This document shows, one piece after another, positions 37,518 through 39,178 of a stretch of DNA of 64,000 nucleotides; the first letter of the stretch is position 1; each line of letters starts with the position of its first letter. The DNA is from a virus (Duplodnaviria; Heunggongvirae; Uroviricota; Caudoviricetes): the IMG/VR virus record IMGVR_UViG_3300045988_009603; one strand, 5' to 3'. The notes beneath the pieces were generated by a model that did not search any database, was not told where the DNA came from, and saw only the letters and a list, made by a program, of their open reading frames with translations. The position numbers and the translations under genes are program-made.

Positions 37518-37667
37518 ATCACTTAAGAGTCTTTCTAAGAGGGTTTTTAAGTGATGTGTAGCTCGGTCAGGTATGGTGCGGTGGTGTAAGGTGGTGTCAG
37601 GTGTAGTATGGTGCGGTGATGTGAGGTATGGGTAGTTAGTCTCAGCTACATTAAAATGAGACTTACC
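37518..37667 (+). repeat. composite repeat unit copy 1 (T-rich palindromic box, C-depleted GGT-rich tract, conserved-loop hairpin)
   Basis: ATCACTTAA...TTAAGTGAT box 37518-37555; GGT-rich tract 37564-37635; hairpin AGTCTCA-GCTACATTAAAA-TGAGACT 37631-37667. Confidence 0.6.
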
Positions 37668-37670
37668 TTT

Positions 37671-37786
37671 TTAAAAGGCCTTTTAAGAGGGTCTTTTAAT
37701 GAGGTGGGGTGGTGTAAGGTGGTGTAAGGTCTGGTTCGGTGTGTCGCGGTATGGGTGGATGGTAGTAGCCACGTTAAAAATCTACC
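37671..37786 (+). repeat. composite repeat unit copy 2
   Basis: Palindrome TTAAAAGGCCTTTTAA, box CCTTTTAAGAGGGTCTTTTAATG, GGT-rich tract, hairpin GGTAG-TAGCCACGTTAAAAAT-CTACC. Confidence 0.6.
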
Positions 37787-37793
37787 AAGTTTC

Positions 37794-37821
37794 TAAAGAG
37801 TCTTCTGTTGAGGGTTCTTTA
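37794..37821 (+). repeat. partial third copy of T-rich box directly upstream of gene 37863
   Basis: TAAAGAGTCTTCTGTTGAGGGTTCTTTA resembles TTAAGAGTCTTTCTAAGAGGGTTTTTAA. Confidence 0.45.
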
Positions 37822-37862
37822 CAAACAACTTAACAATCAACTAAAGTGTGGAGCTAAATACT

Positions 37863-38450
37863 ATGAAACTGTTAAATATCAAAATCACTGGTACTCGTCC
37901 TTTCCTGAGCCACGCTGATACGCTGTCAGACCCATTAAATCCTCTGACAAAATATCACAAGTCTCTGTCCAGTAAACGTAAAAAGACTGACGAAGATTAT
38001 GCGCTCTTAGCAGAAAGCCAACTGGTAACTTCTTGTTACTACGATGAGCAACTAGGTTTTGTTATGAACGGTGAGATGATTGAGGCTTGCATCAAGTCTG
38101 GTGCGAAACTCAACAAACTTGGTAAGGTAATTGACCGAGCCATTATGCTGACAGATGTAGTCTTCCCAATGACTATCAAGAACTGTCCAGCAAACCCACA
38201 AGAACTTGCTAAGAATCCAGACTTCATCTATGCTAAGTCTGTTAAGATTGGTACAGCACGAGTTATGAGCTACCGTCCAATCTTCCGTGACTGGTCTGTA
38301 GAGTTTGGATTGATGTTCGATGAAGAGCAAATCACCAAAGAGGAGCTTCTAATGGTTCTTGAAAATGCTGGTAACCTTTGTGGTGTAGGTGATTGGCGTC
38401 CACGCTTTGGTCGTTTTTCTGTAGAAGTTATTTCAGAAGGTAACGTTTAA
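37863..38450 (+). CDS. hypothetical protein (cassette gene 1)
   Basis: Start at ATG 37863 with GTGGAG RBS; 195 aa; no recognised motif. Confidence 0.5.
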
Positions 38451-38452
38451 TT

Positions 38453-38893
38453 ATGAATACAAAAGCATTAGCAGCAAAGTTTAGTTACGGTGACACTGTA
38501 TCACATTCTGAGATGGACACCTTCTTAGGTATTGTGAAGCCAACTTATCAAGGTGACATTGTTAAGTACGAAGATGAAATGAAGGCTTATGCGCTTACAC
38601 GTCTAAACCGACTTGAAAAGTTTATTGAAAAACTTCTTAAAGAAGAGAAGATTTATCTGGTTGCTTCAATGGGTGTTGGTTATCGTGTGGTTGAACCTAA
38701 GCATCAAGCAACTATTGCAAAACGCAAAATGTCTGGTAAGATTGGTCGTGCTTTAAAGCAAGCCACTCAAGCGATTGAGAATGTGAACACTATGGCACTT
38801 AGTCATCAAGAACGTTCACGACTGATTGAACAGCAAAATCACTTAGCTGCTATGAAAGCTAATATTAACAAGCAACGCAGAAAACCTTTCTAA
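38453..38893 (+). CDS. hypothetical protein (cassette gene 2)
   Basis: 146 aa; charged/helical, basic C-terminus; no recognised motif. Confidence 0.5.
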   Translation: MNTKALAAKFSYGDTVSHSEMDTFLGIVKPTYQGDIVKYEDEMKAYALTRLNRLEKFIEKLLKEEKIYLVASMGVGYRVVEPKHQATIAKRKMSGKIGRALKQATQAIENVNTMALSHQERSRLIEQQNHLAAMKANINKQRRKPF

Positions 38894-38904
38894 GTTGACT
38901 AGGT

Positions 38905-38927
38905 AGCCTCTTCGGAGGCTCCTTTTT
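38905..38927 (+). terminator. intrinsic terminator (AGCCTC-TTCG-GAGGCT plus T-run)
   Basis: 6 bp stem, UUCG loop, CCTTTTT tail directly after cassette gene 2. Confidence 0.6.
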
Positions 38928-39041
38928 AAAAGGTCTTTAAACAGGGTCTTTTAACAAGGCTTAGCTTGGTTAGGTATGGTAAGGTGGTGTTTGGTGTTGT
39001 AAGGTATGGGTAGTTAATCGGAGCTACATAAAAATTCGATT
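38928..39041 (+). repeat. composite repeat unit copy 3
   Basis: Box AAAAGGTCTTTAAACAGGGTCTTTTAAC, GGT-rich tract 38961-39013, hairpin AATCG-GAGCTACATAAAAATT-CGATT 39016-39041. Confidence 0.6.
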
Positions 39042-39043
39042 AC

Positions 39044-39178
39044 ATCACTTAAGAGTCTTTTAAGAGGGTTTTTAAGTGAGGTGTGGCACGGTAATGTTAG
39101 GTAGGGTCAGGTCAGGTCAGGTCAGGTGAGGTAAGGTAATGTATGGAAGGATGGCAGTAGCCTTATAAAAAATCTGCC
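39044..39178 (+). repeat. composite repeat unit copy 4, includes (GGTNA)7 tandem pentamers
   Basis: Box ATCACTTAAGAGTCTTTTAAGAGGGTTTTTAAGTGA near-identical to copy 1; GGTCA x4 + GGTGA + GGTAA x2 at 39105-39139; hairpin GGCAG-TAGCCTTATAAAAAAT-CTGCC 39153-39178. Confidence 0.6.

What the first reader, a model, noticed from the sequence alone, without database searches (positions are those of the whole stretch)
37631..39178. Conserved-loop hairpin with compensatory stem changes across four copies
The hairpin closing each repeat unit keeps a near-identical loop (GCTACATTAAAA, TAGCCACGTTAAAAAT, GAGCTACATAAAAATT, TAGCCTTATAAAAAAT) while the stems differ but stay complementary: AGTCTCA/TGAGACT, GGTAG/CTACC, AATCG/CGATT, GGCAG/CTGCC. 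Covarying stems around a conserved loop suggest selection on the folded structure (RNA, or a DNA cruciform/protein site) rather than on primary sequence. The loops are too long and lack the downstream U-run for ordinary terminators.
Basis: seen in the sequence. Interest (0 to 1): 0.75.

Follow-up and report, generated by a model that had tools for sequence, protein, structure and literature searches.

The report
Guide-RNA tails of a phage VIPR system
The four hairpins are real; they form the 3' pseudoknot "caps" of four guide RNAs (vrRNAs) of a phage VIPR system, a CRISPR-like RNA-guided DNA-silencing system first described in two 2026 preprints, so the feature is genuine but already explained.

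Summary
Four hairpins sit at 37638-37663, 37761-37786, 39016-39041 and 39153-39178, with different but complementary stems. Each closes a 123-148 nt unit: a 5' spacer element, then 11-16 pentamer repeats (YNNGG, i.e. GGY conserved and NN hypervariable), then a fixed 32-nt tail. The "conserved loop" is not only a loop. Its 5' half pairs with the four bases just before the hairpin, giving an H-type pseudoknot. Across 47 units from 12 phages, 99.5% of cells pair and 8 of 9 pairs change on both sides.

The window is a Felixounavirus. The two genes between the unit pairs are 98% and 99% identical to Vipr and Vap1 of phage SUSP1, the model type II VIPR system (bioRxiv 10.64898/2026.04.26.720920 and .720927). 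Those preprints report vrRNAs of 9-16 YNNGG repeats capped by a 3' pseudoknot, with one Vipr protomer per repeat and NN bases pairing with DNA under a 1-nt-skip rule.

I reproduced three points. The 195-aa protein models as a RAMP fold. Two of the window's four guides match a satellite-like E. coli island only at skip 1. In total 22 of 46 guides match versus 0 at other skips.

Verdict: already known; a member of the SUSP1 VIPR clade.

The parts
37459..37486 (+). Sigma-70-type promoter (TTGACA-16-TATACT, 11/12) upstream of the first vrRNA array and vipr-vap1
   Evidence: Promoter scan. Its role as the array promoter is inferred.
37515..37551 (+). 5' spacer element of unit 1 (flavour CATCACTTAAGAG...AAGAGGGTTTTTAAG); function unknown
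   Evidence: Repeat families D3/D4; sequence; two flavours seen across 47 units.
37552..37631 (+). vrRNA-1 guide tract: 16 YNNGG repeats
   Evidence: Register derived. [quoted passage not shown]
37664..37699 (+). 5' spacer element of unit 2 (flavour ACCTTTTTAAAAGG...AAGAGGGTCTTTTAA)
37700..37754 (+). vrRNA-2 guide tract: 11 YNNGG repeats; no target found
   Evidence: No match of 80% or more in 7 islands and no exact match in IMG/VR.
37755..37786 (+). vrRNA-2 3' tail, type B pseudoknot: S1 GTGG 37755-58 / CCAC 37769-72; S2 GGTAG 37761-65 / CTACC 37782-86 (hairpin 2). Type B is always the last tail before vipr
37863..38450 (+). vipr: 195-aa RAMP-fold protein that binds the vrRNA, one protomer per repeat
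38453..38893 (+). vap1: 146-aa VIPR accessory protein
   Evidence: 99% identical to the second gene of the SUSP1 locus. No Pfam family matches. The preprint predicts a DNA-binding role and reports that it enhances protection.
38905..38928 (+). Intrinsic terminator after vap1 (AGCCTCTTCGGAGGCT plus T-run). Its T-run is the start of unit 3
   Evidence: Terminator scan. Conserved at the head of every downstream array.
38921..38954 (+). 5' spacer element of unit 3
38955..39009 (+). vrRNA-3 guide tract: 11 YNNGG repeats
   Evidence: The NN code matches the tape-measure/baseplate intergenic region of the same island at 17-20 of 22 bases.
39010..39041 (+). vrRNA-3 3' tail, type C pseudoknot: S1 GTAG 39010-13 / CTAC 39024-27; S2 AATCG 39016-20 / CGATT 39037-41 (hairpin 3)
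39042..39076 (+). 5' spacer element of unit 4
39077..39146 (+). vrRNA-4 guide tract: 14 YNNGG repeats, including a (TCAGG)x4 slippage run
   Evidence: Best island match is 20/28. By hand count on the output it becomes 22/26 if one CA repeat is removed.
39147..39178 (+). vrRNA-4 3' tail, type D pseudoknot: S1 AAGG 39147-50 / CCTT 39161-64; S2 GGCAG 39153-57 / CTGCC 39174-78 (hairpin 4). Type D is always the last tail of the downstream array

Best explanation
The region is a complete type II VIPR (Viral Interference Programmable Repeat) locus of a Felix O1-like phage. It has two vrRNA genes, then vipr, then vap1, then two more vrRNA genes.

Each vrRNA is a run of 11-16 pentamers (YNNGG) followed by a fixed 32-nt tail. 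[quoted passage not shown]

Shown for SUSP1 in the preprints, and inferred here from 98-99% protein identity and identical RNA architecture:
- Vipr protomers polymerise along the tract, one per repeat.
- They sequester each GGY and present the NN dinucleotides.
- The NN bases pair with double-stranded DNA while skipping every third target base.
- The bound gene is silenced.

In this phage, guides 1 and 3 are aimed at an ~11-kb satellite-like island of E. coli that carries tape-measure and baseplate genes homologous to the phage's own. The system therefore most likely represses a parasite of the phage.
For: Identity of the phage and earlier annotation:
- The window is a Felixounavirus, and earlier annotators marked these repeats only as 'DR_4'.

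Unit anatomy and the GGY/NN pattern:
- Across 494 pentamers, position 1 is G 87%, position 2 is G 98%, position 3 is T 87% / C 5%, and positions 4-5 are near random.
- The tract occurs only in these four units of the window: 30 matches against 0.1 expected.

Pseudoknot covariation:
- 99.5% of cells pair, 8 of 9 pairs change on both sides, and slide controls give 29-43%.
- A fifth tail type in an E. coli island adds an independent A-T to C-G swap in stem 2.

Proteins:
- They are 98% and 99% identical to those of the SUSP1 locus.
- The GGY-contact residues from the cryo-EM paper are conserved.

Published description that matches point by point:
- vrRNAs of 9-16 YNNGG repeats, an invariable tail with a pseudoknot, arrays flanking vipr-vap, and the 1-nt-skip rule.
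- A pseudoknot capping the 3' end, and one protomer per repeat.

My own test of the code:
- Guide 1 matches the island tape-measure gene at 29/32 with the skip base on codon position 3. Guide 3 matches at 19-20/22, about 1.2 kb away on the same strand.
- Nothing matches at skip 0, 2 or 3. The best of 200 shuffled guides were 23/32 and 18/22.
- Of 46 guides from 12 phages, 22 reach 80% NN match at skip 1, against 0/0/0 at other skips and 1 shuffled.
- There is no self-target in the window.

Broader association:
- 30 of 43 IMG/VR loci with such tracts also encode a Vipr-profile hit in the fetched stretch.
Against: - There are no transcript or binding data for this particular phage; expression and RNP formation are transferred from SUSP1.
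- Both source papers are preprints.
- I could not see the preprints' figures, so I cannot verify that my S1/S2 pairing is base-for-base their model.
- The covariation rests on 4-5 tail types, i.e. few independent events. Single-sequence folding is not significant.
- Guide 2 has no target in anything I could search. Guide 4 matches only at 71% unless one repeat is removed.
- The terminator at 38905-38920 lies upstream of vrRNA-3 and -4, and no convincing promoter follows it. How the downstream array is transcribed and how units are separated is unexplained.
Confidence: 0.93

Rival explanations
1. The tail acts mainly as a transcription stop or RNase-processing punctuation mark that separates the vrRNAs of an array. 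It would not be a structural cap that matters for the Vipr filament.
For: - Tail types are position-specific: B is always last before vipr, D always last in the array, A and C internal.
- Type A is followed 4 nt later by a T5 run.
- Units are 123-148 nt whereas the mature RNAs are about 100 nt, so some cutting or separate initiation must occur.
Against: - The terminator scan does not call any of the four, and types B, C and D have no T-run.
- Cryo-EM resolves the pseudoknot as part of the mature RNP at its 3' end, so it is retained, not discarded.
- The two roles are not exclusive.
Confidence: 0.05
2. The repeats are DNA-level elements: iterons of a replication origin, or a centromere-like binding site. 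One GenBank record (KhF3) annotates them as a 'possible binding site of StbAB', and wV8 calls them direct repeats DR_4. On this reading the hairpins would be cruciforms.
For: - Existing annotations.
- Location among replication genes (ligase, polymerase, DHFR).
- 10-bp spacing reported by the repeat finder.
Against: - Only GGY is conserved at a strict 5-nt period, while the other two bases are free. A sequence-specific dsDNA site would not behave this way.
- The G-rich strand is the sense strand of flanking ORFs for 78 of 87 upstream and 64 of 77 downstream neighbours.
- The free bases carry a readable code that finds targets only at skip 1.
- The RNAs were sequenced and co-purified with Vipr in SUSP1.
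Confidence: 0.01
3. The locus is a decaying remnant. The tails are conserved by recent common descent only, and the guides of this particular phage no longer function.
For: - Guide 2 has no target.
- Guide 4 carries a slipped extra CA repeat that breaks register with its best match.
- Some relatives have lost vipr-vap1 altogether.
Against: - vipr and vap1 are intact and 98-99% identical to the functional SUSP1 genes.
- All GGY-contact residues are kept.
- Guides 1 and 3 match their targets at 86-91%.
- GGY periodicity is maintained in all four tracts.
Confidence: 0.03

Closest known systems
Type II VIPR system of Escherichia phage SUSP1 (bioRxiv 10.64898/2026.04.26.720920 and 10.64898/2026.04.26.720927)
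   Same: - Same two proteins (98% and 99% identity).
- Same YNNGG repeat tract.
- Same tail types: SUSP1 carries B upstream and A, A, D downstream.
- Same promoter-array-vipr-vap1-terminator-array layout.
- Same kind of target, a satellite-like E. coli island.
   Different: - Array composition: 2+2 units here against 1+3 in SUSP1.
- A type C tail is present here.
- Different NN codes, hence different target sites.
- The host phage is a Felixounavirus, not a Suspvirus.
crRNA repeat-derived handle of class 1 CRISPR-Cas complexes (Cas7 backbone, Cas5/Cas6-bound handles)
   Same: - A variable guide is capped by a conserved structured element.
- RAMP-fold protomers polymerise along the guide at a fixed step and flip out bases at each step.
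   Different: - The step is 5 nt with three bases sequestered, not 6 nt with one flipped.
- The guide is non-contiguous.
- The cap is a pseudoknot, not a Cas6 hairpin.
- No Cas1/Cas2 or spacer acquisition is involved; the system is encoded by a phage.
TRAP binding site in the Bacillus trp leader ((G/U)AG triplets separated by 2-3 free bases) - from my own knowledge
   Same: Both are periodic single-stranded RNA in which only a triplet per ~5 nt is conserved, because each subunit of an oligomer reads one triplet. This analogy led me to expect an oligomeric partner before I found the preprints.
   Different: TRAP is a closed 11-mer ring that regulates attenuation, and the free bases carry no information. 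Here the free bases are the message.
'DR_4' direct repeats of phage wV8, and 'direct repeat sequence4, possible binding site of StbAB' of phage KhF3 (GenBank annotations)
   Same: The same sequences, in the same two intergenic regions.
   Different: They are annotated on the opposite strand as DNA repeats with no structure or RNA role. That reading is superseded.

Membership tests
VIPR system, type II (SUSP1 clade) | A Vipr protein: a small (~20 kDa) RAMP-fold protein (RRM core, G-loop, thumb) encoded next to the RNA genes | tested here: met
VIPR system, type II (SUSP1 clade) | Residues that recognise GGY (H17, R138, D177, W178 for the two G; E71, M72, C173, R179 for Y) | tested here: met
   All are present at those positions in the window protein (sequence; residue list). 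The preprint text also names T175; the window and SUSP1 both have V175. I cannot resolve this discrepancy.
VIPR system, type II (SUSP1 clade) | A vap accessory gene directly downstream of vipr | tested here: met
   The 146-aa ORF at 38453-38893 is 99% identical to the second gene of the SUSP1 locus.
VIPR system, type II (SUSP1 clade) | vrRNA tract of 9-16 YNNGG repeats, with GGY conserved and NN hypervariable | tested here: met
   The window has 16, 11, 11 and 14 repeats. Position profile: G 87%, G 98%, T/C 92%, NN near uniform. NN and repeat number differ between phages while the tails do not.
VIPR system, type II (SUSP1 clade) | Invariable 3' tail that folds with a pseudoknot | tested here: met
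   S1 (4 bp) plus S2 (5-7 bp): 99.5% paired, 8 of 9 pairs with changes on both sides, slide controls 29-43%. I cannot check base-for-base identity with the published model because the figures are not held.
VIPR system, type II (SUSP1 clade) | vrRNA arrays in the intergenic regions flanking vipr-vap | tested here: met
   Two units lie upstream and two downstream. The same layout, with 1-2 upstream and 1-4 downstream units, is seen in the 10 related loci that carry the cassette.
VIPR system, type II (SUSP1 clade) | NN code finds natural targets under the 1-nt-skip rule, with skip bases on codon wobble positions | tested here: met
   Met for guides 1 and 3: 29/32 and 19-20/22, only at skip 1, above all 200 shuffles, and guide 1's skip base falls on codon position 3. 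Inconclusive for guide 4 (20/28). No target was found for guide 2.
VIPR system, type II (SUSP1 clade) | No self-targeting of the source genome | tested here: met
   The best NN match of any guide anywhere in the 64-kb window is 64-73%, below the 80% threshold. Only the window was tested, not the whole genome.
VIPR system, type II (SUSP1 clade) | vrRNAs expressed as ~100-nt RNAs that co-purify with Vipr and direct silencing | not testable with these tools
   Shown for SUSP1 by sRNA-seq, pull-down, GFP repression and cryo-EM. Inferred here by near-identity.
Rho-independent terminator | G+C-rich stem with a 3-8 nt loop, followed directly by a U-run | tested here: not met
   Loops are 12-16 nt and stems have 2-4 G-C pairs. 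None of the four is called by the scan, which finds only 38905-38920.
Any curated Rfam family | Score at or above the gathering threshold | tested here: not met
   No hits at gathering threshold over the whole window. Only chance-level matches (E 0.8-5, far below gathering score) appear in 37400-39300. vrRNA is not in Rfam 15.
Iteron / centromere-like DNA repeats (parC-StbAB type, as suggested in the KhF3 record) | Repeated duplex sites of conserved sequence bound by a partition or initiator protein | tested here: not met
   Only 3 of every 5 bases are conserved and the rest are hypervariable. The G-rich strand is co-oriented with most flanking ORFs. I did not search the window for StbA/StbB homologues.

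The most novel reading that the evidence does not exclude
Some Felix O1-type phages carry 'orphan' vrRNA arrays. One example is Salmonella phage SP116, with two units (tails A and D) and no vipr or vap1 anywhere in the genome. Their guides still keep the GGY period and still match the E. coli island at 85% and 80%. The most novel reading is that these arrays are not debris: they would work in trans, loading onto Vipr supplied by a co-infecting phage, or they would act as competitors for it. The satellite islands would do the same, since at least one carries its own vrRNA but no vipr. The position-specific tail types (B before vipr, D at the array end, A and C internal) might then encode sorting or processing information that the preprints do not discuss.
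Probability: 0.2. Interest if true: 0.55.

Novelty: already known. Interest (0 to 1): 0.3.

Why it matters
That class was reported only months earlier as a possible ancestor of CRISPR. The analysis adds nothing categorically new, but it has three uses.

First, it re-annotates a locus that about 118 deposited Ounavirinae genomes list as 'hypothetical proteins' and 'direct repeats'.

Second, it replicates the 1-nt-skip code independently, with different phages and controls.

Third, it names likely targets for this phage's guides: the tape-measure gene and the tape-measure/baseplate intergenic region of an island found in 479 of 5,426 complete E. coli genomes. Felix O1-like phages are used in biocontrol and therapy. 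A built-in programmable silencer aimed at a satellite is relevant to host range and to phage engineering.

Tried and rejected
**Before I found the preprints**, I considered these readings of the (GGTNN)n tract plus hairpin. Each is now set aside.
- A TRAP-like ring-protein site. The logic was right, but the family is wrong.
- An R-loop or G-rich replication origin, a minus-strand Rho rut site (ACCNN)n, and clustered T7-type primase sites. None of these explains a strict 5-nt phase with a conserved T.
- Two-quartet G-quadruplexes, for the same reason.
- A type III toxin-antitoxin RNA array. The units are too long and variable, and the array persists without the two genes.
- Shine-Dalgarno-like standby sites, a sponge for tRNA CCA ends, and a geminivirus-style iteron-plus-nick-hairpin origin.

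**Database and literature searches**
- Rfam gave nothing. Pfam gave nothing for either protein, and PHROGs lists both as 'unknown function'.
- Literature searches on Felix O1/wV8 repeats and on strings such as 'GGTNN' found nothing relevant. The search for 'pentanucleotide repeats + phage + intergenic' found the VIPR preprint.

**Target searches that failed or were set aside**
- A guide 2 pattern and a second guide 4 pattern had no exact match in IMG/VR.
- The single IMG/VR hit for the first guide 4 pattern (L133) matches only 3 of the 8 bases outside the searched block. I treat it as chance.

**Other negative results**
- aragorn found no tRNA within 300 nt of any tract. A tRNA T-arm-like sequence nevertheless follows the tract in L021 and L037.
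Full report
**What is in the sequence**

The four hairpins are exactly as described. They are not isolated. Each closes a 123-148 nt unit, and the four units are homologous: U1 about 37515-37663, U2 37664-37786, U3 38921-39041, U4 39042-39178 (alignment A1; repeat families D1-D5).

A unit has three parts:
- a ~35-nt 5' element in two flavours (CATCACTTAAGAG...AAGAGGGTTTTTAAG, or ACCTTTTTAAAAGG...AAGAGGGTCTTTTAA);
- a G/T-rich tract with a strict 5-nt period;
- a 32-nt tail that contains the hairpin.

A pattern of five GGTNN repeats (up to 2 mismatches) matches 30 times in the window. 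All matches are on the + strand inside these four units, against 0.1 expected. A strong sigma-70-type promoter sits at 37459-37486. The only terminator-like site is at 38905-38920, between the second gene and U3.

**Source of the window**

The window is a Felix O1-like myovirus (Felixounavirus). Its best matches are phages LMP34/33/25 at 95.9% and wV8 at 92%. The units lie between the DNA ligase gene and a block of small genes. They flank two ORFs of 195 and 146 aa that have no Pfam family and 'unknown function' in PHROGs. Earlier annotators saw the repeats only as DNA features: 'DR_4' in wV8 and 'possible binding site of StbAB' in KhF3.

**Comparative anatomy**

An nhmmer profile of the four units found 47 units in the window plus 11 related loci, all on the gene-sense strand. 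Three things stand out.

1. The tails fall into four discrete, almost invariant types.
   - A: AGTCTCA / TGAGACT
   - B: GGTAG / CTACC
   - C: AATCG / CGATT
   - D: GGCAG / CTGCC
   Their order is fixed. B is always last before the 195-aa gene, D is always last in the downstream array, and A and C are internal.

2. The tract is hypervariable between phages in both length and sequence, yet it keeps GGT at every fifth position. Position 1 is G 87%, position 2 is G 98%, position 3 is T 87% / C 5%, and positions 4-5 are close to random.

On 45 distinct tails, the nine pairs of S1+S2 are formed in 99.5% of cells and eight pairs change on both sides. Sliding the partners gives 29-43% pairing, and no column shuffle reaches the observed score.

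Some caution is needed. The variation is between 4-5 types, so independent events are few. Single-sequence folding energies are unremarkable, with z from -0.8 to -2.0. Within-type mutations behave as the model predicts. Three independent changes hit the unpaired base just before the 3' strand of S1. Two changes break only the terminal S2 pair. One T-to-C change in phage Moogle adds a sixth S2 pair.

**From anatomy to identity**

Many unrelated viral contigs carry the same kind of tract: heterogeneous NN, 10-48 repeats, an identical positional profile, mostly intergenic and co-oriented with neighbouring ORFs. The element is therefore a widespread class.

A literature search then found the explanation. 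Two 2026 bioRxiv preprints from one laboratory describe VIPR systems. According to them:
- a small RAMP-fold protein, Vipr, binds 'vrRNAs' made of 9-16 YNNGG repeats (GGY conserved, NN hypervariable);
- the repeats are followed by an invariable 3' tail that forms a pseudoknot in the SUSP1 clade;
- one Vipr protomer binds each repeat in a right-handed filament, hiding GGY and presenting NN;
- the NN bases pair with double-stranded DNA while skipping every third target base;
- binding silences transcription;
- natural targets of the SUSP1 clade are a satellite phage.

[quoted passage not shown] It also shows target engagement proceeding from the protomers next to that pseudoknot. SUSP1 is my locus L008. 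There I had independently found one unit upstream and three downstream of the two genes, which is the layout the preprint reports.

**Membership tests run here**

- The 195-aa and 146-aa proteins are 98% and 99% identical to the SUSP1 pair. The preprint's cloning description ('vrRNA1 and vipr CDS', '~20 kD') identifies the first gene as vipr and the second as vap1.
- The residues that the structural preprint says read GGY are all present.
- The tracts have 16, 11, 11 and 14 repeats.
- vrRNA is not in Rfam 15.

**Testing the code**

I converted each tract to an nNN query. Ten-repeat blocks of guides 1 and 4 each hit IMG/VR once.

The guide 1 hit (L132) extends to 29 of 32 NN bases. Guide 3 matches the same contig about 1.2 kb away at 19 of 22. 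The guide 4 hit (L133) does not extend, and I treat it as chance.

L132 is identical over the 3-kb stretch I queried to part of an ~11-kb island in E. coli JNEC-KY173. The island is inserted in a DUF72 gene. It encodes a Dam-type methyltransferase, an HTH protein, small hypotheticals, a tape-measure protein, a baseplate protein and a serine recombinase. Related sequence occurs in 479 of 5,426 complete E. coli genomes.

Guide 1 lies inside the tape-measure gene, with its skip bases on codon position 3. Guide 3 lies 43 nt upstream of the baseplate gene. Both matches hold in all seven island variants fetched, even where wobble bases differ.

Controls:
- skip 0, 2 and 3 give nothing above background;
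- 200 shuffled guides reach at most 23/32 and 18/22;
- of 46 guides from the 12 phage loci, 22 reach 80% NN match in the seven islands at skip 1, against 0, 0 and 0 at other skips and 1 for shuffled guides;
- no guide matches the window itself above 73%.

The island's baseplate protein is 83% identical, and its tape-measure protein 27% identical, to proteins encoded at 51984-54976 (minus strand) of the window. The island has no vipr or vap1. This fits the preprint's picture of a satellite that exploits this kind of phage.

Guide 2 has no target in anything I could search. Guide 4 matches a 107-aa island gene at 20/28. It matches at 22/26 if one of its four slipped CA repeats is removed, by hand count on the output. 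Phage BPS15Q2 carries the three-repeat version.

**Role of the hairpin**

- Shown in the preprints: the pseudoknot is part of the mature RNP at the 3' end of the filament, filaments can touch through it, and the protomers beside it are the first seen engaged with DNA.
- Shown here: both helices are under selection for pairing, and the tail is invariant while the guide changes freely.
- Inferred: the tail fixes the end of the filament and the register of the repeats, much as the repeat-derived handle does for a crRNA, and it may protect the 3' end.
- Not explained: the ~35-nt spacer elements; how units are separated; how the downstream array is transcribed past the conserved terminator; and why tail types are position-specific.

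**Verdict**

The feature is the known 3' tail of vrRNAs in a locus that belongs to the SUSP1 VIPR clade. It would have been a striking find a year earlier, but it is now already explained. Residual interest lies in three points: the orphan arrays of vipr-less relatives, the specific targets predicted for this phage, and the unexplained spacer elements.

Noticed in passing
window 51984-54976 (minus strand); loci L132, L134-L140: The guides' target is an ~11-kb E. coli chromosomal island inserted in a DUF72 gene. It carries a Dam methyltransferase, an HTH protein, a tape-measure protein, a baseplate protein and a serine recombinase, and is present in 479 of 5,426 complete genomes. Its baseplate protein is 83% identical and its tape-measure protein 27% identical to proteins encoded in the window, so this phage is a plausible helper of the island.
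   Followed up: partly
L011 2513-2794; whole SP116 genome in L141/L142: Salmonella phage SP116 has two vrRNA-like units (tails A and D) between ligase and the 127-aa gene. It has no vipr or vap1 anywhere in its genome (tblastn E > 0.9). Its guides still match the E. coli island at 85% and 80%. The layout looks like a deletion by recombination between two type A units of a wV8-like array. About 231 phage records carry sequence matching this repeat region or its leader, but only about 118 carry vipr.
   Followed up: partly
L139 2142-2191 (minus strand): One island variant (E. coli SCU-387) carries its own vrRNA-like tract with a fifth tail type (S1 GTGG/CCAC, S2 GTCG/CGAC) but no vipr. The preprint mentions satellite-encoded vrRNAs. 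This tail adds an independent compensatory A-T to C-G change in stem 2.
   Followed up: partly
window 39107-39126: Guide 4 contains (TCAGG)x4, a pentamer slippage run. The best island match has three xCA steps, and phage BPS15Q2 has the three-repeat version. This suggests guides gain and lose whole repeats by slippage, which can put the 3' part of a guide out of register with its target.
   Followed up: partly
window 37515-37551, 37664-37699, 38921-38954, 39042-39076, and a partial copy at 37793-37819: The ~35-nt spacer element before each tract contains two direct copies of a motif like AAGAG(T/G)(C/G)TTT inside an imperfect palindrome. It comes in two flavours that follow particular tail types (after A: ACCTTTTT...; after C: ACATCAC...). 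I could not tell whether it is a promoter, a processing site or a protein site. The outer pairs are not well compensated.
   Followed up: partly
L046-L050 (IMG/VR contig 3300029288_001872, 189 kb) and L045: A ~189-kb AT-rich viral contig carries at least nine separate heterogeneous GGYNN tracts. Each has a promoter-like sequence in front and ends in GGGTN plus a hairpin with a T-run, so they look like stand-alone sRNA genes. No Vipr-profile hit was found in those fetched stretches. L045, from a second ~182-kb contig of the same sample, does have a weak hit. This may be another VIPR type.
   Followed up: no
L021 739-823, L037, L054, L081, L090: In several unrelated contigs the tract is followed not by a pseudoknot but by a tRNA-like minihelix with a T-arm (GGTTCGATTCC). 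aragorn does not call it a tRNA. It is possibly a different 3' cap or an RNase P processing signal. All of these loci also have a Vipr-profile hit.
   Followed up: no
L014, L017, L019, L027, L030-L032, L034 and others: The same scan also picks up perfect pentamer microsatellites, (GGTCG)n, (GGTTG)n, (GGTCA)n and (GGTTA/GGTAA)n, in GC-rich viral contigs. They have identical NN in every repeat, and most have no Vipr-profile hit in the fetched stretch (L034 does). They are probably a different phenomenon and a source of false positives for vrRNA finders.
   Followed up: no
GenBank GU169904.1 (hits H5 and H121): The record 'Staphylococcus phage SA1' (147 kb) contains a Felix O1-like segment 94% identical to this region, including a 100% identical vipr. 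A Staphylococcus phage is an implausible home for it, so the record looks chimeric or contaminated.
   Followed up: no
phage records H151-H155: Distant Vipr homologues (23-44% identity) occur in Gordonia, Mycobacterium and Pseudomonas (LESphi2) phages or prophages, and in Listonella phage phiHSIC. The wV8 annotators had already noted the phiHSIC similarity in 2009 without knowing its function.
   Followed up: no
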